NCBI GenBank assembly: GCA_017475605.1
Contig: JAFVFD010000005.1
Location: 150,001 to 182,000, forward strand
Origin: Alphaproteobacteria bacterium
GTDB taxonomy: Bacteria > Pseudomonadota > Alphaproteobacteria > Rs-D84
Reading direction: 5' to 3'
DNA: 32,000 bases
Shown here one piece after another: positions 3,083-24,239 of this stretch. Each line of letters begins with the position of its first letter. Position 1 is the first letter of the stretch. A model generated the notes under the pieces. It had not been told where the DNA came from and did not search any database. It was given only the letters and a program-made list of their open reading frames with translations. The position numbers and the translations under genes were made by a program.

Positions 3083-4801
3083 TTATTCAACCCAAATTGA
3101 TGCTAATGTCGTTGAATTTTCACTTCCTGATGGAATCTTGTTTTGAGCATTCGCTAATGCGGTTGTAAGCCCACTAATCTTGCTCTGTGCGATTGCCGCA
3201 GATGTACTGATATCCGCATCCACAATTGTACCATTGGCAATCTTGGCACTTGTTACCGCACTATCTGCAATTTTTGCGGTCGTAACATTAGCATCTGTTA
3301 TCTTTGCTGTTGTTACCGCACCATCTGTAATCATACCTGTTGCAATTGTGCCGGTTGTAACGTTACCACTGGAATTTGTTATAACCGCTTTGTTCGCAGC
3401 ACTAGATCCCTGGGCTATTGTAACTTTTTTCGCAACCTCGGTATCAGTGTATGATTTTGCCTGAGTCAGTGCACTTGCCGCCGCAGTAGCAGCAGATGCA
3501 CCTGCAGCCCCCGCCGCTATTTCTTCCGCCGCATATACAGATGCCGCTGTTGCTTTCTTCGTATCTTCGCTTACTGTATCGTCATATGTCGCTGCAAGAT
3601 TCTGTAACGCCGTATCGGCTTTACCCAACGATGTCTGGACCGCACTTGCCAATTTAGCTTTCGCAATTGTGCCGTCCGCGATATCCGCATTCACAATAGT
3701 GCCGTCGGCAATCTTGGCGCTTGTTACCGCACTGCCGGCAATTTTTGCAGTCGTAACATTACCATCTGTTATCTTTGCCGTCGTAACCGCACCATCTGTA
3801 ATCATACCAGTCGCAATTGTGCCGGTTGTAACGTTACCACTGGAATTTGTTATAACCGCTTTGCTCGCAGCACTAGATCCCTGGGCCGTCGCAACTGCAC
3901 CAACATCCGATGCCCCCAAAGAGATATTACTTGACAATGCTTTGCCATTAACAGTTCTACTGGTTGGAACATAACTGCCAGATGCCTGTTTCCCATCTAA
4001 TGCCTTTTCCAATTTACCCAATGCCGCATTAACTGTATCGGTCGCCTCAATCGCTGCTGCTGTTTCTGCCTTGGCATAGCCTGTAACGGCTACATCTGCA
4101 CCAGACAATGTTATATCACCGCTTAATGCCTTGCTGTTAACTGTACGCGATGTGGGTACCGCACCAACATCCGATGCCCCCAAAGAGATATTACTGGATA
4201 AAGCTTTTCCATTAACAGTTCTACTGGTTGGAACATAACTGCCAGATGCTTGTTTCCCATCTAATGCCTTTTCCAATTTACCCAACGCTGCATTAACAGT
4301 ATCGGTCGCCGCAATCGCACTGGTTGCATTTGGCTTGGTATATCCAGTTGCCGCAATATCTGCACCTGACAATGTTATATTACCAGACAATGCCTTGCTG
4401 TTAACTGTACGCGATGTCGGGACATAACTGCCTGCGACTTGAAACTCACTGGCATCATGACTTACGATATCTCCATATTCCGCGATTGTATCCGCTGCGC
4501 CCTTACCGGCGGTTGCATTTGAACGAATTGTTGCCAAATCGGAAATCGTTGCCTGCTTGCCCGCCAAAGCACTGTTCACAACCTTGTTTTGAACCGCGTT
4601 AGTACTGCTACTGCTTAATGCGCTATCAACTGTTGGACCGCTAATCTGAACCTTGCCGGCATTGGTACCATTTGTCGGAACAGTAACACTAACACCATTC
4701 GCCCCCACGATATTCGTTTGGGTAACGACCTTTGCGTGTACTGTCGGCACTGCCAACATCGCTATAAATGAAACTGCAAAAATCCTATTTAGTCTTGTCA
4801 T
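3083..4801 (-). CDS. Secreted tail-fibre-like repetitive protein, paralog 6 (572 aa)
   Basis: GGAAAG RBS. Signal peptide MTRLNRIFAVSFIAMLAVPTVHA|K. Motifs include STNAVQNKVVNSALAGKQ, repeated YVPTSRTVNGKALSSNISLGASDVGAV units, and two blocks of decapeptide repeats (ITDGAVTTAK, ITDGNVTTAK and so on). It ends IPSGSENSTTLASIWVE. Confidence 0.85.
   Translation of the reverse strand: MTRLNRIFAVSFIAMLAVPTVHAKVVTQTNIVGANGVSVTVPTNGTNAGKVQISGPTVDSALSSSSTNAVQNKVVNSALAGKQATISDLATIRSNATAGKGAADTIAEYGDIVSHDASEFQVAGSYVPTSRTVNSKALSGNITLSGADIAATGYTKPNATSAIAATDTVNAALGKLEKALDGKQASGSYVPTSRTVNGKALSSNISLGASDVGAVPTSRTVNSKALSGDITLSGADVAVTGYAKAETAAAIEATDTVNAALGKLEKALDGKQASGSYVPTSRTVNGKALSSNISLGASDVGAVATAQGSSAASKAVITNSSGNVTTGTIATGMITDGAVTTAKITDGNVTTAKIAGSAVTSAKIADGTIVNADIADGTIAKAKLASAVQTSLGKADTALQNLAATYDDTVSEDTKKATAASVYAAEEIAAGAAGASAATAAASALTQAKSYTDTEVAKKVTIAQGSSAANKAVITNSSGNVTTGTIATGMITDGAVTTAKITDANVTTAKIADSAVTSAKIANGTIVDADISTSAAIAQSKISGLTTALANAQNKIPSGSENSTTLASIWVE
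3209..3886. repeat. Pair of 207-nt near-identical direct repeats (3209-3415 and 3680-3886) inside paralog 6
   Basis: Base-by-base comparison shows only scattered mismatches. The offset is 471 nt (157 codons, in frame). Each copy encodes AVITNSSGNVTTGTIATGMITDGAVTTAKITD.NVTTAKIA.SAVTSAKIA.GTIV.ADI. Confidence 0.9.
3897..4424. repeat. Tandem duplication, 2 x 264 nt (88 codons), inside paralog 6
   Basis: GCACCAACATCCGATGCCCCCAAAGAGATATTAC... recurs at 3897 and 4161. The unit encodes PTSRTVNSKALSG.ITLSGAD...TDTVNAALGKLEKALDGKQASGSYVPTSRTVNGKALSSNISLGASDVGAV. Confidence 0.9.
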
Positions 4802-4874
4802 TTTCGTCTTTCCGTTCTTATTGTCGTGTTTTCACGATTTTGTTATTCCCTTTTGCAATTCTGTTTTTATTGAC

Positions 4875-6707
4875 TTAACGGCCAATATCTTCCCAATAAT
4901 ATGTTGTCGCATTGTCTGCCACCTTGGCGGTAAGGACATATACCCCTTCGGTGCTTGGTGTGGCGGGTATTGCCGGCAATGAATTCTGCTTGGTCGCCAA
5001 CGCATCGGTAATGGCCTTTTGTGTCATGGTGCCATCCGTCCCGGTCCCTGTTGTTGTCTGCAATTTCATAACACCCTTGGTTGATGCGCCTGCATTTGCG
5101 ACACTGATTGTGCCTTCGGAAACACTGATGTTTGTTCCAACCTGAACAACACCCTTGGCCGATGTTGTTGCATTTGTCCCAGCCACCGTAATTGCACCAT
5201 TGGATGCGCTTGCGCTAACACCATTACTGCCCGATGCCGTAACGCTATTTTTCGCATTTGCGGCCGCAGTGGCTGCATCATCGGCTTTCTTTTCCAACTT
5301 ACCCAACGCGGTGTTCAATGTATCGGCCGTGGTCAGGTCTGCATTTGTCGTGGCCTTTGTATACCCCGTAATTGCGCCCATTTTGTTCGTAGTTATAGCG
5401 GCCGATGAACTGACCTTAGCATTTGTGATTGCATTACTTGCAATGTCGCCCGCTGCGATTGTTCCACGAACAACAGACACGGTCCCATCCGTTGCGGTTA
5501 TTGTTTTAACGACCCCGCTGGCACTGGCATTGTTTGACGTAATGGTTACATTTCCCCCATCCGCAGAACTCAACTTAACCTGTTTAGCATCGGCCGCATC
5601 TTTTGCTGCCTTGGTCGCGGTATCCAATTTTGCCAGGTTGCTGGCCACATTGTTACCGATTTCAATATAATTTCCTGCTGTTTTAACTTCAGAATCTGCT
5701 GATTTTTGGAATGTTGCAGCATTTTGTCTAACCACAGTTCCTGCGGCAACATTAGCAATATCATACGCGATACCAACCGTTACCAAATTATTTTCGTTTG
5801 CCGGTGTATCGTCTTCGGTTGTCGCTATATTAGCTAACTTTGCATTGGTAATTGTCGCATCTTTGATATCGCCATTTTCAATTGTTCCATCTGTGATATC
5901 TGCGGATGCAACCGCGCTTTTTGTTGCCAACGACCCCAGGCCCGAAACCTTGCTGGATGCGATAGTGGACGAAACCTCTACGGCGCCACTGGTTGCGTTG
6001 GTTGTCAATATACCTCCCTTGGTCGTTTGCGTTGATGCAACTGCACCAACATCGGATGCCGCCAATGTTACATCACTGCTTAATGCTTTGCCGTTAACTT
6101 TACGCGATGTCGGAACTGCACCAACATCAGATGCAGTCAGCGAAATATCCGCGCTTAATGCCTTGTTGTTAACTTTACGTGATGTCGGAACATAATCGCC
6201 TGCTGCACCACTGACCGCCGCACTTGCCGCTTCACTGGCAATCTTTGCTGCGGTTTTCATTGATGGATACGTTGTCGTACTGGTTTTATCGTATGTCGTC
6301 CCAGATTCCGCCGTTACCATATTCCCAGTTGTCTGTTTCGCCGCCAATGCAGTGTCCAGCCCAGAAATTTTCGCGGTTGTCAATGTTGGGATATCAGATG
6401 CCGCCAGGGTCGTACTGCCCGTTACCAAACCTTTGGCATCGTATGTAATCTTGGTCCCGGTTCCAGCCGTTATCGCGGCATTTGCTACGACAGCTTTGTT
6501 CGCGGTGGTTTGGGCTTCTGCGGCCGCAGTTGCTGCATCTGTCCCGGCTTTTTTCGCATCGGCAATAGCCATTTCAACGGTTTTATCTTTGTCATACACG
6601 CCCGCCGTTTTAGATAACATTGTTTCCGAAACGATAACCGCGTTTGCGCCGGTTACTGCCGTAATCGCAAGTATTGAAACTGTTAAAACTTTATTAAATG
6701 TTTTCAT
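4875..6707 (-). CDS. Secreted tail-fibre-like repetitive protein, paralog 5 (610 aa)
   Basis: Signal peptide MKTFNKVLTVSILAITAVTGANA|V. Motifs include KITYDAKGLVTGSTTLAASDIPTLTTAKISGL, YVPTSRKVNNKALSADISLTASDVGAV x2, decapeptide repeats and DTLNTALGKLEK. The C-terminus is IPATPSTEGVYVLTAKVADNATTYYWEDIGR. Confidence 0.85.
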   Translation of the reverse strand: MKTFNKVLTVSILAITAVTGANAVIVSETMLSKTAGVYDKDKTVEMAIADAKKAGTDAATAAAEAQTTANKAVVANAAITAGTGTKITYDAKGLVTGSTTLAASDIPTLTTAKISGLDTALAAKQTTGNMVTAESGTTYDKTSTTTYPSMKTAAKIASEAASAAVSGAAGDYVPTSRKVNNKALSADISLTASDVGAVPTSRKVNGKALSSDVTLAASDVGAVASTQTTKGGILTTNATSGAVEVSSTIASSKVSGLGSLATKSAVASADITDGTIENGDIKDATITNAKLANIATTEDDTPANENNLVTVGIAYDIANVAAGTVVRQNAATFQKSADSEVKTAGNYIEIGNNVASNLAKLDTATKAAKDAADAKQVKLSSADGGNVTITSNNASASGVVKTITATDGTVSVVRGTIAAGDIASNAITNAKVSSSAAITTNKMGAITGYTKATTNADLTTADTLNTALGKLEKKADDAATAAANAKNSVTASGSNGVSASASNGAITVAGTNATTSAKGVVQVGTNISVSEGTISVANAGASTKGVMKLQTTTGTGTDGTMTQKAITDALATKQNSLPAIPATPSTEGVYVLTAKVADNATTYYWEDIGR

Positions 6708-6752
6708 TGTGTCCGCCCTTGTCTTTTATTGTTGTCTTTTTTGTGTCCGTTT

Positions 6753-8681
6753 TTACCGTCCGATTACTTCCCATGTATAGCCAGTATTATCATACGTCAG
6801 CACGCATTTATTGGTTGCATCTGAACAGTTAGTTCCTGGTTTTGGAATTGCAGTACCTGATACGGTAACTGTAACAGCCCCACCAGTTGTGGAAATATCA
6901 CTCAAAATATTACCCGTACCAGATTTAGTTACACTCTGAATTGCGCTGTCTGCTTTGGCACCCTGGGCCGATGTTGCGTATGCTGTCGATGCAGTATATG
7001 CCGCGCTGCCCAAACCTTTGACCGCGACCGCTTCGCCCTTGACTGAAATTGTACCATTTGCCATTGTGGACGTTCCGGTTGTGATATCTGCTTTCTGTAA
7101 TGCGCTGTCCGCCTTGCCACCCTGGGCCGCTGTTGCGTATGCAGAACTTTCCGTATATGCCGCTGATTTCAAACCTTTGACCGAAACATCGGTACCTTCA
7201 ACCGCGATTGTACCGTTTGCCGTACCGGTTGTGATATCCGCTTTCTGTAATGCGCTGTCGCCGGCACCCAATTTTGCAACAACCGCATCCGCCAAATCAG
7301 ATTCTGTTACCTTGGCCTTGGTCATAGTGATTGCTGTGCCATTTTTAGCGACATTCGTAACAACACCTGCGTCGGTATTCGCCGTTACAGACTGTAATGC
7401 GGTGTCCGCCTTGCCACCCTGGGCCGATGTTGCGTATGCTGTCGATGCAGTATATGCCGCACTGCCCAAACCTTTGACTGCGACCGCTTCGCCCTTGACT
7501 GAAATAGTACCATTTGCCATTGTGGACGTTCCGGTTGTGATATCTGATGCCTGTAATGCGGTGTCCGCCTTGCCACCCTGGGCCGATGTTGCGAAATCCG
7601 ATGCGTCATGCGTTACGACATCGCCGTATGTTGCGATTGTATCCGCTGCGCCCTTACCGGCCGCTGCGTTTGAACGAATTGTTGCCAAATCGGAAATCGC
7701 ACCTTGCTTGGCATTCCATGTGCTTTTTTCCGTATCAGACACAAACTGTGCGGTTGCAGATGTTGCAATCAAACCCGCCGACAATTTGTTCTGATCTGTA
7801 ATCTTGTCTTGTTTACCGGATTCCAACGTATCAATATCAGATGCGTTTGTTGCGATATTGGTTTTATTAGTGTTAATTTGTGTTACCAATGCCGATGTAA
7901 TACCGGAATTATACGCGGCGGAATCTTCTATTGTTTTTACACGACCCGCCAACGCTGTATCATCGTATGTTGCAGCAGATTGTGCCTCGTTAATCATCTC
8001 AACGACCGTTTTACCGTCCGTAACATTACCGATTTTATTGTTAATTGCTGTATCTGCGGCCTCGCGTGCAGATTTTTCTGTTGCGATTGCGGTTGCGTTT
8101 GTTGCCGCCGCAGATTTAGCCTCGTTTGCGGTCCCCTGGGCTGCATCGGCTGCATCTTTGGCATTTTTCGCCGCTGTATCCAATTTGCCAAGATTGCTTG
8201 CCACTTTGTTACCTATCTCAATATAATTTCCCGCCGTTGCAACATAGGAATCTGCTGATTGTTGAAAATCAGAACTTTGCTGTTGTAGTGCTATTCCTGC
8301 CGCTATATCTGCGATATCATACGCAACACCAACCGTTACCAAATTATTTCTATTTTCTGCAGAATTTGATTCATCTTCTGCGATTGTTGGTGTGCCGGTT
8401 AAATCACTGTATGCGCCGGTTGTTGCGACATTGGCCAGACCGCTTACATTTGCGGCCGGCAATTTATTAGTAGCTGTAATCGCGTCCTGTTTGGCGGACC
8501 AGGCGGTTTTTTGTTCCGCGGTTACGTGAATATCATTATTCGCCGCATGTGTATCAATTTTATTTTCGACGGGCGTAATCTTGCCATTGACATAGGTCGT
8601 GGATGCGATATCCGCATTTGCTGCACTAACCGCCATTATTGCCGCAATCAACACAGTCAAGATATTAGTTTTTGTTTTCAT
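6753..8681 (-). CDS. Secreted tail-fibre-like repetitive protein, paralog 4 (642 aa)
   Basis: The ATG at 8681 follows a GAGAG RBS; the track start at 8693 is a GTG. Signal peptide MKTKTNILTVLIAAIMAVSAANA|DIASTTYV. It contains VATTGAYSDLTGTPTI and four units of about 50 aa (ADITTGT...KGLGSAAYT.S.AYAT.AQGGKAD.ALQ). The C-terminus is IPKPGTNCSDATNKCVLTYDNTGYTWEVIGR. Confidence 0.85.
   Translation of the reverse strand: MKTKTNILTVLIAAIMAVSAANADIASTTYVNGKITPVENKIDTHAANNDIHVTAEQKTAWSAKQDAITATNKLPAANVSGLANVATTGAYSDLTGTPTIAEDESNSAENRNNLVTVGVAYDIADIAAGIALQQQSSDFQQSADSYVATAGNYIEIGNKVASNLGKLDTAAKNAKDAADAAQGTANEAKSAAATNATAIATEKSAREAADTAINNKIGNVTDGKTVVEMINEAQSAATYDDTALAGRVKTIEDSAAYNSGITSALVTQINTNKTNIATNASDIDTLESGKQDKITDQNKLSAGLIATSATAQFVSDTEKSTWNAKQGAISDLATIRSNAAAGKGAADTIATYGDVVTHDASDFATSAQGGKADTALQASDITTGTSTMANGTISVKGEAVAVKGLGSAAYTASTAYATSAQGGKADTALQSVTANTDAGVVTNVAKNGTAITMTKAKVTESDLADAVVAKLGAGDSALQKADITTGTANGTIAVEGTDVSVKGLKSAAYTESSAYATAAQGGKADSALQKADITTGTSTMANGTISVKGEAVAVKGLGSAAYTASTAYATSAQGAKADSAIQSVTKSGTGNILSDISTTGGAVTVTVSGTAIPKPGTNCSDATNKCVLTYDNTGYTWEVIGR
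6961..7593. repeat. Pair of 177-nt near-identical direct repeats (6961-7137 and 7417-7593) inside paralog 4
   Basis: CCCTGGGCCGATGTTGCGTATGCTGTCGATGCAGTATATGCCGC... recurs at an offset of 456 nt (152 codons, in frame) with few mismatches. Confidence 0.9.
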
Positions 8682-8830
8682 AACTTCTCTCACTTTTTAT
8701 CTTTTTATGGCAAGACACACCCACCTACCCCACCGGGGGTATCTTCTTGCTTAACTTACCTTTCCCTATTATTTCTGCGGGGTTCGGGGGACCGGTCCAC
8801 CGGCCCCACCCCACGATTTACGAATTACTA

Positions 8831-9646
8831 TTAACGCGTAATTTCTTCCCAGCTGTATGCTTTACCATTATAGTGCAATACACAGTCTTTGCAGGAGCCA
8901 GATGGCTGTGGAATTGCAGTACCAGATACTGTAACAGTAACAGCATGATCTGTTGTTGTAATACCGGTCAAGATATTACCTTCACCAGATTTTGTAACAC
9001 TTTGAACAGCGCTGTCTGCTTTAGTACCTTGTGCTGCAGTCGCGAATTCGTCTGCATCGTGTGTTACGATGTCGCCATAGCTAGCAGCATTCGTAACCAA
9101 TGTATCATATTGACCAACTTTTGCTTGTGTGATACCTGATGTCATTGGTGCAGAACTGTTGATTGTAGAAATTGCTGTTTCGTTCGCAGTAACTTTTGCT
9201 GACAATGCTGTATCATCGTATGTAGCTGCAGTTTTTGCTGCTTCAACTGCTGTATAAACTGCTTTTGCAGATGGATACTGAGTATCTGTTGACGATTCAC
9301 TCATACTTGTTACCAAGTTTGATTTAATCTGCATATCGCTGATTGCAGCCGGTTGAACAGCTGTATCCGCTTTAGCACCTTGTGCTGCTGTCGCATATGC
9401 TGCATCACTCTGTTCTGTTGTTGAATATGGAACCAACGCTTCTGCGATTTGGGTTGCGACAGATTTGTTACCTGCTTTGGTGTTCAATTCGTTGATAGCA
9501 CCAACCAAATTGTCTTTTGCGGTCGTGGTCAAATTTGTTAATGTACCTGTTTGTTTGTCTACATATGCCTGTGATGCGATATCTGCGTTTGCTGTGCCTA
9601 TTGTGGCCAACAAAACTGTAAATATACTGGCGGTTAGTTTTTTCAT
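8831..9646 (-). CDS. Secreted tail-fibre-like protein, paralog 3 (271 aa)
   Basis: GAAAGG RBS. Signal peptide MKKLTASIFTVLLATIGTANA|DIASQAYVDKQ. It contains NLVGAINELNTK and YGDIVTHDADEF. The C-terminus is SVTKSGEGNILTGITTTDHAVTVTVSGTAIPQPSGSCKDCVLHYNGKAYSWEEITR, which parallels the end of paralog 4. Confidence 0.85.
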   Translation of the reverse strand: MKKLTASIFTVLLATIGTANADIASQAYVDKQTGTLTNLTTTAKDNLVGAINELNTKAGNKSVATQIAEALVPYSTTEQSDAAYATAAQGAKADTAVQPAAISDMQIKSNLVTSMSESSTDTQYPSAKAVYTAVEAAKTAATYDDTALSAKVTANETAISTINSSAPMTSGITQAKVGQYDTLVTNAASYGDIVTHDADEFATAAQGTKADSAVQSVTKSGEGNILTGITTTDHAVTVTVSGTAIPQPSGSCKDCVLHYNGKAYSWEEITR

Positions 9647-9793
9647 AGTTTTTTCCTTTCTTTCTTTTTTTGGTTTGTTGTTTGTTGTTTTTTTGTCGTC
9701 CCGGCGGTCCCATTTGGTTCAACCGGGACGGGTTATTGTTTTCTTCGTTCTTTTATCTCTATCGTTTTCGTCTTGTCTTATATCAAATCTTTA

Positions 9794-10741
9794 TTACGGT
9801 TCAACACTCATACTGAACGGCAAGGTGATGCCGGCCCATTCCATTGCGCCTGTGTCTTTGTTTTTAACCAATACACAGTAATCAGATTCACTGGTGCAGG
9901 AACCACTCATTGCGGTTTGTGTTGCTTCATATGCTGCAACCTTGGTCGCATCAATGCCGGAATTAACAGCTGCCAACTGAGCCGTTGTCAATGTATCCTG
10001 TTTGCCGTCCAATGCAGCATCTAATTCATTGATCGCACCTGTAACAGTTTGCGCAGTTGTTGTTAATGTATCAGATCCAACCTTGGTTTCCAACGCGGTA
10101 ACATCGGTTGCATCCGCTTTGTCTGCCAAAGCTTCTTCAACGGTGGTATTACCAGTACCCAAATCACCCAATGCATCAGAAATTTGTTGTGAAACAGAAC
10201 CCGCACCGCCGGTTACACTGGCCAACGCATCGGCAACCGCTTTTTCTGTTGCCCATTTAGTGTCTGATGCACTTGCGGCGGCACCAATTGTTGTTGCGGC
10301 ATCGGAAACATTAACCTTACCGTCCAACGCAGAATCTAATTCATTGATTGCACCGGTAACTGTTTGTGCGGTTGTTGTTAATGTGTCGGTACCAACCTTG
10401 GTTTCCAATGCATCAACATCAGCCTGGGCTGCATCTGCGGCAGCCTTGGCTTCTGCGACAGAACCAGCCGTATCCGCATCACCCATCAATGTGTCAACAT
10501 CATCTTTTAATTCATTGACCGCACCAACAACAGTATCAGATGTAAAACCATCGTCCAACGCATCGTTTTCACCGGCAACCAAATCGGACAATTCGGTAAT
10601 TGCACCATTTTCACCAGTCAACTCGCTAACCTTATTATCAACATAGTCTTTTGATGCAATTGTGAATGCCGCGTTAGCATCCACGGTTCCCATCAAGATT
10701 GCCGCAGCAAAGCCTGAAAATACAATGTTTCTTACTTTCAT
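9794..10741 (-). CDS. Secreted tail-fibre-like protein, paralog 2 (315 aa)
   Basis: Signal peptide MKVRNIVFSGFAAAILMGTVDANA|AFTIASKDYVDNK. It has two copies of ETKVG.DTLTTTAQTVTGAINELD.ALDGK. The C-terminus is GSCTSESDYCVLVKNKDTGAMEWAGITLPFSMSVEP. Confidence 0.85.
   Translation of the reverse strand: MKVRNIVFSGFAAAILMGTVDANAAFTIASKDYVDNKVSELTGENGAITELSDLVAGENDALDDGFTSDTVVGAVNELKDDVDTLMGDADTAGSVAEAKAAADAAQADVDALETKVGTDTLTTTAQTVTGAINELDSALDGKVNVSDAATTIGAAASASDTKWATEKAVADALASVTGGAGSVSQQISDALGDLGTGNTTVEEALADKADATDVTALETKVGSDTLTTTAQTVTGAINELDAALDGKQDTLTTAQLAAVNSGIDATKVAAYEATQTAMSGSCTSESDYCVLVKNKDTGAMEWAGITLPFSMSVEP
10005..10408. repeat. Pair of 89-nt similar direct repeats (10005-10093 and 10320-10408) inside paralog 2
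   Basis: CCGTCCAA.GCAG.ATCTAATTCATTGAT.GCACC.GTAAC.GTTTG.GC.GTTGTTGTTAATGT... recurs at an offset of 315 nt (105 codons). Confidence 0.85.
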
Positions 10742-10798
10742 TTTTTTCTTTCCTTTCTTTTTTTCTTAGCCCGGAATCCCCGGAACCGTTTTGTTGTT

Positions 10799-13033
10799 TT
10801 ATTCTATTGTGTCACCCGTGGCGGCGGCAATTGCCGGACCATCTGAATCACCGTTTCCATCAACGATTGGTATATATGCCTGGACCCCATTAACAAATCC
10901 TAATACATATTGACCACTTGGTGGAACAGCCCCCTTGATAACCTTTTCTTCCAATGCGCCGGTTACAACCTTGTTCTGGATTGCATTAGCGCTTGATAAA
11001 CTTAATTCAGAATCAACAATAACCCCTGCTGGAATTGTCGGTTTGTTTTGGATGAAACTTAATTTTGCAGAATCTTCTTCTTCCCAGTCTGCCTGGACCA
11101 AATCAGTCGTATTCGCCTTTAATGCCAAACCTTCGTTCAAAGCCTGACTGGTGGCAAATTTACCGTCAGCCTCGGCAACGGAATAATAATTTTGTTCCAG
11201 TGTTGTTGCATCAACCTTGCCTGCAATTTGATTTGCGTATGCATCATAGGCAGAAACCTTTTCCCCAGTAATACCGGAATTAACCGCCGCCAATTGCCCT
11301 TCGTTCAAAGAGTTCTGTTTGTCCGCCAACGCGTTTGCGATATTTGTCGCGTTTGTTGTAACAACTTCCTGTAATTCGGTAATCTTGCCCGCGTTTGTAG
11401 AGATACCCGTTTCATTCGTACCAACGCGACCAGCCAATGTTTCCAAATCAGACGCATTTGCCTTGTCCGCCAACGCGGTATTCATCGCCGCCGTTGTCGC
11501 AAAACCAGATACATCTGGGATAGTTGGTGTATTTAACAAATCGGTGTATTCGCCGCTGAACGCAACGTCCGCCAAATCGTCCGAGTCAGGCTTGTCCGCC
11601 AATGCCGCCGTATTCGCAGCAATCGCCGCGGCATTATCCGCAACCGATTTGGTCAAACCAGAATTCGCATCACCAACCGCGGTTTCTAATGCGGTAATCT
11701 TTTCATTGGCTTCGGCTAAATTCGCATCGGTCGGTAAATCGTCAACCTTGTCAGACAATGTCGCGATTGTCGAGGCAACCGTATTCGTTGAATCAAAGCC
11801 GGTTCCCAATGCATCAGATGCCGTTTTACCAGCCGTCGCATTTGAACGGATTGTTTCAATATCGGAAATGGCATTGTTTATTGTTCCCAATTCCGTTTCA
11901 ACATAATTTTGGTTAGCCTTCAAGGCAATCTTGTCGTCCATAACCTGTAACGCGCCATACATTGATGCAACATCAGCCTTGTTCGTGGCGATTTGCCCAA
12001 CCTTGGTCGCATCAATGCCGGAATTCAATGCAGACTGCTGCGCCTCGGTCAATTGGTTCCATCCACCAGTCGCAGTACCCAATGTATAATCAGCAGTTGA
12101 TTTTGGCTGCTTGCCCGCAACAACTTCATCGGTCGCAACATTTTCCAATTTGGTATCAATGTCAGATTTCGTATAAACATCTGCGGTGTTGGCCTTAGCC
12201 TCCAATAATGCATCGGTCGCAGTCTTTGTATAAACACTGTCTGAATCAGCCTTTTGCGCAACGATATCAGATAACGCGTTAACTTCAGACTTGGTCGCGT
12301 ATGTCGATGCCAAACCGGATATAGCATTTGCTAAATCGGTTGCGGTCGCATATGTACCCGCTAATTCGTCCAGATTCATTAACTTTTTCCATGTGGCCGA
12401 CGGGGTATCAGCATAGCGCCATTCCAAATGCGCATCGCCGTCATATTGTAATTCAATCTTGTGTCCCATCGCCCAACCCTGAGACTGTAATGCAGCCGCC
12501 AGGTTATCCATATTGATAGAAACTGTGCTGTTTTCGATTTCAACAATACCTTCGTCGTCGGCAATTAATTTATCCTGTTTGGCATTGTCGATTGCATCAA
12601 CCTTGTCTTCAATTCTGTCGGCATTGCTGATAATGTTGGTAATGTTGTTGTTGATTTCAGCAATTTCCGCCGCGGTCGCACCCGGTGTTGTCGAACCACC
12701 AGACGATGAACCACCAGATGTACTTACCGATGTGGCAGGTCCAAGATATTTACCAATTGATAAACGTTGTGTGCTTTCGGTCGCGCCAGATGGTGTCGTA
12801 CGGGTCGCAGTCGATACAGAACGTGTTGTCGATGGCGATATACGTAACGAACCCGCGCGGGTCGCACGCGCCGCCGTCGAAGACGTGGTCGCAGATGTCG
12901 CCGCCGCGGTACCGTTATATGTACCCGTTCCACCCAGCGCACGAACAGAACCCGCACCAAACGCGTCGGTCGCAACAGCGCACAAAACGCACAAAACTGA
13001 TACTGTCGAAATTTTTAATGTATGCTTTTTCAT
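10799..13033 (-). CDS. Secreted tail-fibre-like protein, paralog 1 (744 aa), with a long Ser/Thr/Arg-rich N-terminal region
   Basis: GGAAAGAGAG RBS. Signal peptide MKKHTLKISTVSVLCVLCAVATDAFG|A. Residues about 27-120 are low complexity. Motifs include AFSGEYTDLLNTPTIP, ADWEEEDSAKLSFIQNKPTIP, SSANAIQNKVVTGALEEK and IETIRSNATAGK. The foldon-like segment VPPSGQYVLGFVNGVQAYIPI is followed by an acidic Gly-rich tail. Confidence 0.85.
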   Translation of the reverse strand: MKKHTLKISTVSVLCVLCAVATDAFGAGSVRALGGTGTYNGTAAATSATTSSTAARATRAGSLRISPSTTRSVSTATRTTPSGATESTQRLSIGKYLGPATSVSTSGGSSSGGSTTPGATAAEIAEINNNITNIISNADRIEDKVDAIDNAKQDKLIADDEGIVEIENSTVSINMDNLAAALQSQGWAMGHKIELQYDGDAHLEWRYADTPSATWKKLMNLDELAGTYATATDLANAISGLASTYATKSEVNALSDIVAQKADSDSVYTKTATDALLEAKANTADVYTKSDIDTKLENVATDEVVAGKQPKSTADYTLGTATGGWNQLTEAQQSALNSGIDATKVGQIATNKADVASMYGALQVMDDKIALKANQNYVETELGTINNAISDIETIRSNATAGKTASDALGTGFDSTNTVASTIATLSDKVDDLPTDANLAEANEKITALETAVGDANSGLTKSVADNAAAIAANTAALADKPDSDDLADVAFSGEYTDLLNTPTIPDVSGFATTAAMNTALADKANASDLETLAGRVGTNETGISTNAGKITELQEVVTTNATNIANALADKQNSLNEGQLAAVNSGITGEKVSAYDAYANQIAGKVDATTLEQNYYSVAEADGKFATSQALNEGLALKANTTDLVQADWEEEDSAKLSFIQNKPTIPAGVIVDSELSLSSANAIQNKVVTGALEEKVIKGAVPPSGQYVLGFVNGVQAYIPIVDGNGDSDGPAIAAATGDTIE

Positions 13034-13092
13034 TTCTCTCTTTCCACGTCTATTTTATCATATTTGCGAATCGGCTCCAAGAACTTTTTTGG

Positions 13093-13809
13093 TTAAAATT
13101 CATATCTGATACCAATTGATATAGAATTATCCAAAACTAAATCGATTTTGTTTTTGAAATAGTGTGTTGCATTAAACTCTCTTTCCTGGCTTGTCCCATA
13201 AAAACCAGCAATACGATAACGTAAATCAAGAACAATATTGTCATCCAATTTGTATGAATAACCCGCCATCAAACCCAACATTGGCGAAACATCTGTTTCC
13301 TTACGATTACCCGCGTCGGTAAACGCAATAGAATCCAGGGTTGTTGTTGGTAACGCAATACCAACACCCGCCCCCAAATACAAACCGTTATCAAAATCAT
13401 AATAACCATTTGCTACTAAATACGGCACAGACATTTTGAACGCATAGCCTTCGTCTTCATCTGTAAATTCACTGATATAACCGGCTTCAACTTCGGCACG
13501 CCAGAAATAATTTATACGTTTACCAAATGCCAAGTCCGCCGCAAACAATGGTTCAAACGAATACTTGTCGTGATTTTCAGACGCATTTAACGGAATATCC
13601 GAAGAATATTTGTTTTCCCAATTCAAAAAACTTAATTCCGCACGAACCGCACCGTACCAACCTGACTTTGCCTTGTCGGTGTAACTATATGTAACGTCAT
13701 AACCCCCCTTTGCGTTACGTGTTAACTGACTTGGGCGGGCAGCCTTGGTCGCGGAAAACGCAGGTGTTACAACCGCACACAGCGCAATAATCGAAACTAA
13801 TTTTTTCAT
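13093..13809 (-). CDS. Outer-membrane beta-barrel protein, Omp25/Omp31/OMP_b-brl-like
   Basis: GGGGGA RBS. Signal peptide ...AVVTPAFS|A. It shows alternating amphipathic strands, RAEVEAGY, and a terminal ...SIGIRYEF with C-terminal Phe. It lies 59 nt upstream of fibre paralog 1 on the same strand, with no terminator between them. Confidence 0.8.
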   Translation of the reverse strand: MKKLVSIIALCAVVTPAFSATKAARPSQLTRNAKGGYDVTYSYTDKAKSGWYGAVRAELSFLNWENKYSSDIPLNASENHDKYSFEPLFAADLAFGKRINYFWRAEVEAGYISEFTDEDEGYAFKMSVPYLVANGYYDFDNGLYLGAGVGIALPTTTLDSIAFTDAGNRKETDVSPMLGLMAGYSYKLDDNIVLDLRYRIAGFYGTSQEREFNATHYFKNKIDLVLDNSISIGIRYEF

Positions 13810-23480: not shown

Positions 23481-24239
23481 TTATTTGTTTATAACCCGTT
23501 CCAATTTGGAACGCAATTTTTTTATATCATCGTATTTAGTAAACTTGCCACGTTCAGCGATTGAAATATCGCCCGATTCTTCGGACACAACCAAAACGGT
23601 TGCCCCAGATTTTTCAGACAAACCCAATGCCGCACGATGACGCGTGCCATATTTCCAATTAAGATTATTCTGCGACAATGGCAATATTGCACCCGCATAC
23701 GCAATTCTGTCGTGTGAAATTATTACCGCACCATCATGTAATGGTGTTTTATTAAAGAATATTGTTAGCAATAATTCAGATGTGATTTTAGCATCAATCG
23801 CTATACCTTTTTTATCAATCGCACTTTCGTCCAGCGAACTTGGGAACACAATTAATGCCCCGGTATGTTTCTGCGACATATATTCTGTTGCCGCCACAAT
23901 CGCGTCCAGCGATGCCGTATTCTTAGCCGAAACCCCGTCGCGCCCAAACACGCGTCGCCATTCTTCTATATTTCCCATCAATGCTAAAAACTTGCGTAAT
24001 TCTGGCTGAAAAATAACAATCAAACTTATGGAAAGGAACAATGCCATCCAATGGAAAAATCCGCCCAACAAATCCAGGTGTGCCCACGATAAAACAAAAC
24101 TGGCAATCCACAATGCCGCCAATCCCAACAATCCGCGAACCAATTTTTCCGAAGATGTATTTTTTATAAATGTTTTATAGAAAAACCATATCGCAATAAC
24201 AATAATTAAAACCTGGGCCAAATTAATCCATTTAAACAT
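23481..24239 (-). CDS. cdaA: Membrane-anchored diadenylate cyclase (CdaA/DisA_N family)
   Basis: Three N-terminal TM helices plus a DAC domain with HDGAVII and GTRHRAA motifs (TPLHDGAVIISHD..., KYGTRHRAALGLSE...SEESGDISIAERG). Confidence 0.85.
   Translation of the reverse strand: MFKWINLAQVLIIVIAIWFFYKTFIKNTSSEKLVRGLLGLAALWIASFVLSWAHLDLLGGFFHWMALFLSISLIVIFQPELRKFLALMGNIEEWRRVFGRDGVSAKNTASLDAIVAATEYMSQKHTGALIVFPSSLDESAIDKKGIAIDAKITSELLLTIFFNKTPLHDGAVIISHDRIAYAGAILPLSQNNLNWKYGTRHRAALGLSEKSGATVLVVSEESGDISIAERGKFTKYDDIKKLRSKLERVINK

What the first reader, a model, noticed from the sequence alone, without database searches (positions are those of the whole stretch)
6753..6851. Conserved foldon-like C-terminal cap shared by the fibre paralogs
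The C-termini align as follows:
- Paralog 4: IPKPGTNCSDATNKCVLTYDNTGYTWEVIGR* (6753-6851)
- Paralog 3: IPQPSGSCKDCVLHYNGKAYSWEEITR* (8831-8917)
- Paralog 5: IPATPSTEGVYVLTAKVADNATTYYWEDIGR* (4875-4973)
- Paralog 2: GSCTSESDYCVLVKNKDTGAMEWAGI... (9794-9910)
- Paralog 1: VPPSGQYVLGFVNGVQAYIPI... (10799-10930)
- Paralog 6: a weaker IPSGSENSTTLASIWVE* (3083-3139)

The shared pattern is P-x-P-x(1-3)-G/C...(Y/C)VL...G/T-x-(Y/W)-x-W/Y-E-x-I. It resembles the T4 fibritin foldon ([27 protein letters not shown]) and the common aPxDGkxYvRkxGxWvxl ends of phage fibres. A C-terminal trimerisation clamp would fit trimeric fibres that fold from the C-terminus.

Three paralogs add a Cys pair just before the hairpin. 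That makes sense for a periplasmic or extracellular (oxidising) location, and I do not associate it with the phage foldon.
Basis: inference. Interest (0 to 1): 0.65.

Follow-up and report, generated by a model that had tools for sequence, protein, structure and literature searches.

The report
Hairpin end-cap on bacterial surface fibres
Four, probably five, of six tandem secreted fibre proteins of an uncultured gut alphaproteobacterium end in the same ~30-residue predicted beta-hairpin, which also occurs on phage proteins. It probably clamps the fibre chains together the way the phage T4 "foldon" does, but it is a separate, undescribed sequence family and its trimer-forming role is untested.

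Summary
The peptides are in the window exactly as described. The cap is a real, portable C-terminal module.

- **Extent.** An exhaustive profile search found 119 hits among 50%-identity cluster representatives. About 105 are genuine, and nearly all of those carry the cap at the extreme C-terminus.
- **Carriers.** Most are signal-peptide proteins of uncultured gut Alphaproteobacteria, including Ca. Enterousia. Two are proteins in phage contexts.
- **Conservation.** In 115 caps: V-L-T, Y-x-W-E-x-I-x-R, Leu 115/115, Glu 114/115, Arg 112/115.
- **Cys pair.** The two Cys always occur together. In 53 of 55 cases they are the only Cys after residue 30.
- **Predicted structure.** Monomer AlphaFold2 predicts a confident hairpin (pLDDT 85-91). 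In P5 it follows a helix and a Pro-rich linker, the same order as the fibritin C-terminus.
- **Paralogs.** P3, P4, P5 and P2 are clear members. P1 is a probable divergent member. P6 carries a different conserved tail.

"Works like a foldon" is plausible but only inferred. "Is a foldon" is not supported. There is no Fibritin_C hit in Pfam and no foldon hit in the PDB. Profile-profile scores are no better than borderline against column shuffles. Trimerisation could not be modelled.

Verdict: a new foldon-like variant, of moderate interest.

The parts
6753..6851 (-). P4 cap, Cys type: A-IPKPGTN-C-SDATNK-C-VLTY-DNTG-YTWEVIGR plus the stop codon. This is the feature in the finding.
   Evidence: Translation. 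Cap HMM 46.6 bits. AF2 hairpin.
6792..6809 (-). P4 predicted strand 1, K629-C630-V-L-T-Y634. It contains the invariant Leu and the second Cys.
   Evidence: AF2 model m7cd5aeebc902, strand 41-46, block pLDDT 85-89. Leu 115/115 and Val 107/115 in the family.
6762..6779 (-). P4 predicted strand 2, Y639-T-W641-E-V-I644, followed by G-R.
   Evidence: AF2 strand 51-56. Glu at W+1 in 114/115 caps, Arg at W+5 in 112/115, Tyr/Phe at W-2 in 112/115.
6825..6827 (-). P4 Cys623, first Cys of the pair, in the loop that leads into the hairpin.
   Evidence: The pair always co-occurs. The two Cys are separated by 6 residues in 44 caps and by 2 in 8.
6804..6806 (-). P4 Cys630, second Cys, at the start of strand 1. 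Non-Cys caps have Tyr, Ser or Leu at this position.
8831..8917 (-). P3 cap, CxxC type: AIPQPSGS-C-KD-C-VLHY-NGK-AYSWEEITR plus the stop codon.
   Evidence: Cap HMM 36.5 bits. P3 and P4 are 64% identical over their last 70 residues.
4875..4973 (-). P5 cap, non-Cys type: AIPATPSTEGV-YVLTAKVA-DN-ATTYYWED-IGR plus the stop codon. Predicted strands lie at 4917-4940 and 4887-4910. The preceding helix lies at 4986-5039.
   Evidence: Cap HMM 50.1 bits. AF2 model m7a5185f6bea9 shows helix 5-22, coil 23-37, strands 38-45 and 48-55, pLDDT 89-91.
9794..9910 (-). P2 cap, subtype B: GS-C-TSESDY-C-VLVK-NKDTG-AMEWAGI-TLPFSMSVEP plus the stop codon.
   Evidence: Cap HMM 31.5 bits. Orthologue profile against the cap: 96.7%, E 4e-10.
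10799..10930 (-). P1 C-terminus, subtype C: PPSGQ-YVLGF-VNG-VQAYIPIV-DGNG..., a probable divergent hairpin followed by a tail. Trp is replaced by Ile.
   Evidence: Not detected by the HMM. Orthologue profile against the cap: 63-73%, E 3e-5 to 7e-5. Positional orthologues in L003 and L004.
3083..3139 (-). P6 tail, type D: K-IPSGSENSTTLASIWVE plus the stop codon. It is a separate conserved terminal motif, not a cap.
   Evidence: hhalign below 4% against all cap types.
3083..13033 (-). Array of six same-strand fibre genes: P6 3083-4801, P5 4875-6707, P4 6753-8693 (database protein starts at ATG 8681), P3 8831-9646, P2 9794-10741, P1 10799-13033. All have signal-peptide-like N-termini and Ala/Thr-rich mosaic bodies.
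   Evidence: The same island lies between OMP_b-brl and DedA/RbfA/LepA in L003 and L004.

Best explanation
**What it is.** The cap is an autonomous module of about 30 residues that ends a family of Sec-exported fibrous surface proteins. The family occurs in reduced-genome gut Alphaproteobacteria (the Rs-D84 / Ca. Enterousia group). The same module ends, or recurs within, some proteins in phage contexts.

**Anatomy.**
- A Pro-rich extended lead-in ([IV]P.P).
- A short loop ending in D/S-G-x, or closed by two Cys.
- Strand 1, x-V-L-T-x.
- A turn or hairpin extension of variable length.
- Strand 2, Y-x-W-E-x-I, followed by x-R.

**Proposed mechanism (inferred).**
1. The whole chain is exported N-to-C through Sec and the signal peptide is removed.
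2. The C-terminal hairpins of several chains, most likely three, associate.
3. The Leu/Trp/Tyr face is buried at the axis. The Val/Ile face and the conserved Glu and Arg make inter-chain contacts.
4. This sets the register, and the upstream coiled-coil or beta shaft zips up from the C-terminus. The T4 fibritin foldon works this way.
5. In Cys-type caps an intrachain disulfide staples the lead-in loop to strand 1. These caps have the shortest turns, 3 residues in 49 of 55.

**Shown versus inferred.** Shown: modularity, conservation, C-terminal position, Cys co-occurrence, the predicted hairpin, and presence in phage-context proteins. Inferred: oligomerisation, its stoichiometry, the folding direction and the disulfide.
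For: - **Family and position:**
- **Conservation on both faces of the hairpin:** V and L are adjacent in strand 1. Y/W alternate with E/I in strand 2. A 30-residue module can bury both faces only by self-association or docking (inference).
- **Indels:** they fall only between the two strands, with lengths of 3-11 residues.
- **Structure prediction:** AF2 hairpins at pLDDT 85-91 for both cap types. P5 shows helix, then Pro-rich coil, then hairpin.
- **Upstream segment:** weak Alanine_zipper (trimeric Lpp-type) hits in 8 of 64 relatives, best E 0.011, below the Pfam threshold.
- **Portability:** the cap follows unrelated upstream segments, either helical (ANAAIP) or beta (VTVSGTAIP, AGNYITVP).
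- **Fibre identity:** bodies match PHROG tail-fibre and head-fibre families. They share modules of 50-69% identity with a phage tail fibre.
- **Phage occurrence, with no signal peptide visible at the N-terminus:**
  - P0197 lies in a terminase-portal-connector-tail module. It has three Gly-X-Y (collagen-like) runs and cap-like copies at 445-472, 649-676 and the C-terminus, plus a looser candidate at 255-283. By general knowledge, collagen triple helices need a trimerising nucleus.
  - P0216 lies in a contig with phage endolysin and phage RNA polymerase families.
- **C-terminal tails:** 0-21 residues follow the cap, so a free C-terminus is not required.
- **Cys pair:** strict co-occurrence, and the only Cys after residue 30 in 53 of 55 proteins.
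Against: - No oligomer could be modelled, and no experiment exists.
- Foldseek found nothing for either model at E<=0.001.
- There is no detectable sequence relationship to the foldon. The analogy therefore rests on architecture alone.
- How a Sec-exported trimeric fibre would cross or anchor in the outer membrane is unknown.
- The conservation counts come from sequences selected with a family profile and a regular expression, so they are partly circular. The regular expression fixed Trp and allowed only L/I at strand 1 position 2 and only I/V/L at W+3.
- Signal peptides were called by a crude heuristic, not a dedicated predictor.
Confidence: 0.55

Rival explanations
1. The cap is a true, very divergent homologue of the fibritin foldon and of the phage AP.DG..Y.R..G.W..l motif. 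On this reading it is a member of that superfamily, not merely an analogue.
For:
- Some sequences look intermediate. Subtype C ends include ADAPTDGDYVLAVSNGQKGWFEVV and GTYLVKRDGEGNISYVSVEIV. The internal copies in phage protein P0197 read LPSDPSSDGAYVLTNTVSSGTAIQSWE. One real fibritin (VR25) has YVLVDNAWVLL.
- The foldon-like motif is widespread and often repeated in phage fibres.
Against: - hhalign probabilities are only 1.5-5%.
- Column shuffles reach the real score in 5 of 300 trials for the cap, 14 of 100 for subtype C and 3 of 100 for subtype B.
- There are no Pfam Fibritin_C or PDB foldon hits at E<=10.
- The Arg of the foldon motif is replaced by an invariant Leu. The spacing between DG and the strand differs by one residue.
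Confidence: 0.25
2. The cap is the distal tip, or a docking element, of the fibre. It would bind a ligand on a partner cell or another envelope protein, for example by beta-augmentation onto the neighbouring 8-stranded-type OMP. It would not drive self-assembly.
For: - By general knowledge, the C-termini of phage fibres are the distal, receptor-binding ends.
- An OMP_b-brl gene sits directly upstream of the array in the window, L003 and L004.
- The host lineage is predicted to depend on other cells (PMC12306168).
- Both faces of the hairpin are conserved, which also fits docking.
Against: - The cap is the most conserved part of otherwise mosaic, fast-shuffling proteins. It is shared across paralogs and across 37 species. 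That is the opposite of what is usual for receptor-binding tips.
- It occurs in phage-context proteins, including as internal repeats.
- 30 residues is small for a binding domain.
Confidence: 0.15
3. The cap is a C-terminal sorting, secretion or outer-membrane-targeting signal for the exported fibres.
For: - It has a strictly C-terminal position in about 100 signal-peptide proteins.
- No dedicated secretion system is encoded next to the array, so some signal is needed to reach the surface.
Against: - It is present in phage-context proteins whose N-termini show no signal peptide, and as internal copies.
- Variable tails of up to 21 residues follow it among the 115 protein hits, and up to 39 residues in the genome loci.
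- It ends in Arg or an acidic tail, not the terminal aromatic residue of an OMP beta-signal.
- NCBIfam gave only sub-threshold matches to unrelated families and no sorting-signal model.
Confidence: 0.08
4. The similarity among the paralog ends is chance, or is compositional in Ala/Thr-rich proteins.
For: - The motif is short.
- The profile also picks up about 10 WD40 proteins through 'DGKYVLTAS'.
Against: - E-values reach 1e-13 against 1.84 billion proteins, with position-specific C-terminal placement.
- 37 of 37 DNA-pattern hits fall in one bacterial lineage.
- Trp and Cys are otherwise nearly absent from these proteins.
Confidence: 0.01

Closest known systems
T4 fibritin foldon (Pfam PF07921 Fibritin_C; PDB 1RFO and 1AA0, recalled from memory)
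   Same: - Both are terminal modules of about 27-32 residues on a fibrous protein.
- Both have a Pro-containing extended lead-in followed by a two-stranded beta-hairpin.
- Both have a conserved Trp in strand 2 and a hydrophobic residue three positions later.
- Both can follow an alpha-helical segment (P5 model).
- Both are portable between different shafts.
   Different: - No significant sequence or profile match.
- The cap has an invariant Leu where the foldon has Arg15.
- The cap has its own W-E-x-I-x-R signature.
- Hairpin length varies, with turns of 3-11 residues.
- About half of the members carry an optional Cys pair.
- It sits on signal-peptide cellular proteins.
- Trimerisation is not shown.
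Foldon-like AP.DG..Y[VA]R..G.W..[LV] repeats in phage tail fibres and fibritins (Straboviridae, Vequintavirinae, Stephanstirmvirinae and others)
   Same: - A short hairpin-type motif that occurs terminally, internally and in tandem in phage fibres.
- The cap-like copies in phage protein P0197 are likewise internal and reiterated.
- Subtype C ends of the bacterial fibres look intermediate.
   Different: Profile comparison is not significant. The canonical cap has longer strands, V-L-T in place of Y-V-R, and a terminal E..I.R.
Trimeric autotransporter adhesins (YadA family)
   Same: Both are fibrous, repetitive, signal-peptide-bearing proteins of Gram-negative bacteria. Surface display is inferred here. 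The decisive assembly element lies at the C-terminus.
   Different: There is no YadA-type beta-barrel anchor or any other Pfam domain. The terminal element is only about 30 residues, too short to form a membrane anchor.
C-terminal intramolecular chaperone domains of phage tailspikes and endosialidases (Peptidase_S74)
   Same: Both are C-terminal elements that nucleate trimer folding of a fibre.
   Different: No Pfam hit. Those domains are about 150 residues and cleave themselves off. The cap is about 30 residues.

Membership tests
Fibritin_C / T4 foldon (PF07921) | Sequence match to the family model | tested here: not met
   No PF07921 hit for the six paralogs at E<=1. None for 64 cap fragments at E<=10. 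HMMER's speed filters may drop very weak matches.
Fibritin_C / T4 foldon (PF07921) | Detectable similarity to solved foldon chains | tested here: not met
   Cap profiles A1 and A3 against all PDB sequences at E<=10 returned only unrelated chains. hhalign against the T4 27-mer gave probability 0.65%.
Fibritin_C / T4 foldon (PF07921) | Profile-profile similarity to the wider foldon motif family (the T4 foldon plus 19 phage copies) | tested here: inconclusive
   Probability 4.5%, P=0.009, 24 columns in the expected register. 5 of 300 column shuffles reach the real score. Subtypes B and C give 5.4% and 1.5%.
Fibritin_C / T4 foldon (PF07921) | Extended Pro-containing segment followed by a beta-hairpin with Trp in the second strand | tested here: met
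   AF2 monomer models of P4 and P5: strands KCVLTY/YTWEVI and YVLTAKVA/ATTYYWED, pLDDT 85-91, preceded by coil over IPKPGTN and LPAIPATPSTEG. This is a prediction, not a structure.
Fibritin_C / T4 foldon (PF07921) | Placed at the C-terminal end of a trimeric coiled coil | tested here: inconclusive
   P5 has a helix immediately upstream. 8 of 64 relatives hit Alanine_zipper upstream, weakly (best E 0.011). In P4 and P3 the upstream segment is a predicted beta-hairpin.
Fibritin_C / T4 foldon (PF07921) | Forms a trimeric beta-propeller-like assembly that drives trimerisation | not testable with these tools
   Only monomer AF2 was available. Foldseek on the monomer models was uninformative.
Trimeric autotransporter adhesin | C-terminal YadA-like beta-barrel membrane anchor | tested here: not met
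   No Pfam family reaches its threshold on any of the six paralogs. The terminal conserved element is about 30 residues.
Phage tail or head fibre proteins (PHROG families) | Profile match of the fibre body to phage fibre families | tested here: met
   P6 matches phrog_5711 head fibre at 1.7e-24 and phrog_23008 tail fibre at 5e-20. P5 matches phrog_17472 at 7e-14. P4 shares 50-69% identical repeats with phage tail fibre P0052. P4 and P1 have no PHROG hit at E<=0.1; P3 and P2 have only weak ones (best E 0.0013 and 0.0024). This concerns the body, not the cap.
Known C-terminal sorting signals (OMP beta-signal, PEP-CTERM and similar) | Terminal aromatic residue, or a TM-plus-basic tail, or a curated model hit | tested here: not met
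   NCBIfam gave only sub-threshold matches to unrelated families and no sorting-signal model. Caps end in G-R or an acidic tail of 0-21 residues. The cap also occurs in phage-context proteins.

The most novel reading that the evidence does not exclude
The six genes encode phage-tail-fibre-derived trimeric surface fibres. An obligately partner-dependent, reduced-genome gut alphaproteobacterium (Rs-D84 / Enterousia lineage) exports them through Sec and uses them to attach to other cells. The fibres are diversified by module shuffling within a fixed chromosomal island and by exchange with phages. All are folded by a previously undescribed, sometimes disulfide-stapled, foldon-type clamp. This would be the first cellular family of such clamps and a new compact trimerisation tag.
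Probability: 0.3. Interest if true: 0.65.

Novelty: new variant of a known kind. Interest (0 to 1): 0.42.

Why it matters
- **A new protein module.** The cap defines a small C-terminal module of about 30 residues. It is absent from the Pfam, NCBIfam and PDB copies searched. It marks a family of about 100 50%-identity clusters, mostly in uncultured gut Alphaproteobacteria.
- **A handle on cell contact.** These bacteria have genomes below 1 Mb and are thought to live off other cells (PMC12306168). Their means of cell contact is unknown, and the fibre array is a concrete candidate.
- **A possible tool.** If the cap trimerises, it would be an alternative to the T4 foldon for protein engineering. 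The natural disulfide-stapled version might tolerate oxidising, extracellular conditions.
- **A record of exchange.** The same cap and body modules occur in phage-context proteins. This documents exchange of fibre parts between a cell's own surface proteins and viruses.

Tried and rejected
- **Short-profile word-index search.** It scored only 244 candidates and returned one hit.
- **IMG/VR DNA patterns.**
  - The Cys-type pattern gave 0 hits.
  - The YYWE.IGR pattern gave 9 hits. Seven are out-of-frame or chance matches. Two (L009, L013) are an internal phage motif, not a terminal cap.
- **Foldseek of both AF2 models against the PDB.** Nothing at E<=0.001. The models are too small and non-globular, so this counts neither for nor against the foldon analogy.
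- **PF27308.** It is precomputed on three cap-bearing relatives, and I suspected it might be a cap model. It is XkdV_N, a faint hit unrelated to the cap.
- **PDB phmmer with full-length P4, P5 and P6.** No solved relatives.
- **P6 as a weak cap.** Rejected after comparing 17 orthologous tails.
- **Literature search for 'foldon-like'.** Nothing relevant to bacterial surface fibres.
Full report
**Setting**

The window is ordinary chromosomal DNA. Its genes include LepA, RbfA, a DedA/VTT protein, an OMP_b-brl porin-like protein, a Pal/OmpA-like protein, TolB, EF-P, the DnaN sliding clamp, UvrC and DnaJ.

Six same-strand genes lie between the DedA gene and the OMP gene, at 3083-13033 on the minus strand. 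All six products have signal-peptide-like N-termini and are Ala/Thr-rich. None reaches any Pfam or NCBIfam threshold.

P6 and P5 match PHROG head-fibre and tail-fibre families. The paralogs are mosaics, with shared segments at non-collinear positions and long direct DNA repeats within and between genes.

**The observation**

Cys occurs in P4, P3 and P2 only as the terminal pair. P5 and P6 each have a single Trp, and P3 has one as well. In each case that Trp lies in the terminal peptide.

**Is it more than chance?**

A search with full-length P4 gave two classes of relatives.
- Signal-peptide proteins ending in the same cap.
- Phage tail fibres that share body repeats but end differently (..ALTWGSL).

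A 43-position cap profile was run exhaustively against 1.84 billion representatives.
- It returned 119 hits at E<=1e-3, the best at 1e-13.
- About 105 are genuine, and nearly all of those lie at the extreme C-terminus.
- About 10 are WD40 false positives.

A degenerate DNA pattern for the Cys-type cap hit 37 species genomes, against about 0.5 expected by chance (my estimate).
- All are uncultured gut Alphaproteobacteria, several named Candidatus Enterousia.
- The cap HMM then found 46 caps in those loci, most 0-10 residues from a stop codon and three 29-39 residues from it.
- The window's flanks align to many of these loci at 65-82% nucleotide identity.
- Two fully inspected relatives (L003 from GCA_017503725.1, and L004) have the same island with 5-7 fibre genes.
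- Enterousia belongs to order Rs-D84. Its members have genomes below 1 Mb and are predicted to be obligate symbionts or parasites of other cells (PMC12306168).

**Anatomy of the cap**

These counts come from 115 caps. The sequences were selected with a family profile and a regular expression, so the counts are partly circular.

| Position | Residue | Count |
|---|---|---|
| Strand 1, position 1 | Val | 107/115 |
| Strand 1, position 2 | Leu | 115/115 |
| Strand 1, position 3 | Thr | 91/115 |
| W-2 | Tyr or Phe | 112/115 |
| W+1 | Glu | 114/115 |
| W+3 | Ile or Val | 115/115 |
| W+5 | Arg | 112/115 |

The regular expression fixed Trp. It allowed only L/I at strand 1 position 2 and only I/V/L at W+3.

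- Indels occur only between the two conserved strands, with lengths of 3-11 residues.
- Tails of 0-21 residues may follow the cap.
- 59 caps are Cys-type (55 by the first parse, plus four CxxC caps it mis-registered). Both Cys are always present. In the 55 first-parse caps they are separated by 6 residues in 44 and by 2 in 8.
- In 53 of those 55 proteins they are the only Cys after residue 30. The turn is 3 residues in 49 of 55.
- Non-Cys caps have [DS]G-x-[YSL] before the strand, and longer hairpins.
- The cap follows unrelated upstream segments, some helical and Ala-rich, others beta-rich. It is therefore a portable module.
- 87 of 97 full-length members have a signal-peptide-like N-terminus, by a crude heuristic.
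- 84 of 97 have an A-x-IAS..YV motif within the first 50 residues.

**The other paralogs**

C-terminal ends of fibre genes in the 37 genome loci fall into four types.

| Type | Window member | Pattern | hhalign against the canonical cap |
|---|---|---|---|
| A, canonical | P3, P4, P5 | see above | reference |
| B | P2 | C..C-VL....W..[VI]T.P | 96.7%, E 4e-10 |
| C | P1 | G-x-Y-[VL]-[LV]...[ND]G...[WY]..V | 63-73%, E 3e-5 to 7e-5 |
| D | P6 | IP.G[SG]..AT[TD]YA.IWVE | below 4% |

For type C, 0 of 100 column shuffles reached the real score against the non-Cys profile, and 2 of 100 against the full cap profile. Type D is a separate conserved tail. It ends the DedA-proximal (last) fibre gene in the window, L003 and L004.

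**Structure**

AlphaFold2 was run on monomers with family alignments.
- **P4, last 58 residues.** A hairpin K629-Y634 / Y639-I644 with a DNTG turn.
- **P5, last 58 residues.** Helix, then a 15-residue Pro-rich coil, then two 8-residue strands joined by a DN turn, pLDDT 89-91.

The P5 order of elements matches the fibritin C-terminus as I recall it. Conserved residues fall on both faces of the hairpin. For so small a module, that implies burial by self-association or docking (inference).

Foldseek found nothing significant for either model, as expected for such small models.

**Comparison with the foldon**

- None of the six paralogs or 64 cap fragments hits Pfam Fibritin_C.
- Two cap-profile searches of all PDB sequences at E<=10 returned no foldon chain.
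- hhalign against the T4 27-mer gives 0.65% probability.
- I built a profile from the T4 foldon plus 19 foldon-like copies taken from 13 phage genomes.
  - Column shuffles reach the real score in 5 of 300 trials.
- Subtypes B and C do no better.
- Suggestive intermediates exist: ADAPTDGDYVLAVSNGQKGWFEVV, GTYLVKRDGEGNISYVSV, and a fibritin with YVLVDNAWVLL. Homology is not demonstrated.

**Phage occurrences**

- **P0197 (879 aa).** It lies between connector and tail genes of a contig with terminase and an SPP1-type portal.
  - It has three Gly-X-Y (collagen-like) runs.
  - It has cap-like copies at 445-472, 649-676 and the C-terminus, plus a looser candidate at 255-283.
  - Its terminal copy is 44% identical to the P5 cap over 39 residues.
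- **P0216 (3352 aa).** It has CHAP and C39-like domains. Its contig carries phage endolysin and phage RNA-polymerase families.
  - It ends in a Cys-type cap that is 55% identical to P4's.
  - It shares an 83% identical 46-residue module with P5.

These occurrences argue against a cellular sorting signal. They favour a folding or assembly role.

**Conclusion**

- The cap is real, modular and conserved, and is predicted to be a beta-hairpin.
- Its most likely role is a C-terminal oligomerisation and registration clamp, analogous to the foldon (confidence about 0.55).
- It is not a demonstrable member of the foldon family.
- A disulfide in the Cys-type caps is well supported by co-occurrence, but is still an inference.
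- P6 should be removed from the set. P1 should be kept as a probable divergent member.

Noticed in passing
window 3083-13809; L003 3519-13410; L004 3500-16688: The fibre array occupies a fixed chromosomal island between an OMP_b-brl gene (next to Pal/OmpA) and DedA-RbfA-LepA. Related genomes hold 5-7 fibre genes of differing length there. Position-specific end types recur: type C first, type B second, and type D last.
   Followed up: partly
window 6753-8693 (P4 residues about 367-589); L067 8001-9632: P4's internal repeats (..NGTISVKGEAVAVKGLGSAAYTASTAYATSAQG.KAD..) are 50-69% identical to a phage tail fibre, P0052. That phage's lysis cassette has an SLH-domain amidase, which suggests a host with an S-layer-type wall. 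If so, the module is shared with phages of other bacteria.
   Followed up: partly
L007 7722-17780 (P0216): A 3352-residue protein with CHAP and C39-like peptidase domains lies in a contig with phage RNA polymerase and endolysin families. Its last 250 or so residues are built from the same modules as the window's fibres: 83% identity over 46 residues to P5, and a Cys-type cap.
   Followed up: partly
L006 10001-12640 (P0197): This phage fibre sits between connector and tail genes. It has three Gly-X-Y (collagen-like) runs and a repeated ~190-residue globular domain. Each domain copy ends in a cap-like LP..P..DG.Y.L......SWE motif.
   Followed up: partly
window, N-termini of P4 (about 8600-8620), P3 (about 9570-9590) and P2 (about 10650-10670): A conserved A-[DE]-IAS-x-x-Y-V-[DN] motif follows the predicted signal-peptide cleavage site. 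84 of 97 full-length family members have it. It may be the proximal attachment end of the fibre.
   Followed up: no
window 12700-13033 (P1 N-terminal region): The first gene of the array has a distinct Ser/Thr/Arg-rich N-terminal region after the signal peptide, with the motifs SVRALGG.GT and RLSIGKYLG. SVRALGG.GT is conserved in the positional orthologues of L003 and L004. It may be an anchoring or base protein.
   Followed up: no
window 3083-3139; 17 orthologous tails in L019-L053: A separate conserved 17-residue terminal tail, [KV]IP.G[SG]..AT[TD]YA.IW[VI][EQ]*, ends the DedA-proximal (last) fibre gene in the window, L003 and L004, and a fibre gene in many other species. One variant (L036) has a Cys pair, KKICSGSTCTAFVDIWVE. 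Its function is unknown.
   Followed up: partly
window 3209-4421, 6928-7593, 10002-10420; inter-gene pairs 6837-6981/8903-9047, 5587-5711/8143-8267 and 4452-4559/7603-7710: Long direct DNA repeats of 104-264 nt at 77-92% identity lie within and between the paralogs. They are likely substrates for recombination that reshuffles fibre modules.
   Followed up: no
L009 about 3400-3650; L013 about 7250-7480 (IMG/VR contigs): Two viral contigs encode an internal motif, TLP.AS..T...[IV]YLVPS...(about 25 aa)...YYWE.IGST.IDLSGYY. It resembles a cap with a long insertion and is followed by more protein.
   Followed up: no
proteins P0049-P0119: The related phage tail fibres carry an N-terminal Phage_tail_C domain and a PTR domain. 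They all end in a short ..A[LF]TW[GQ].[LI]* tail, another Trp-containing terminal motif distinct from the cap.
   Followed up: no
window 23481-24239 (-): This gene encodes a diadenylate-cyclase (DAC) domain protein, implying c-di-AMP signalling in this reduced-genome alphaproteobacterium.
   Followed up: no
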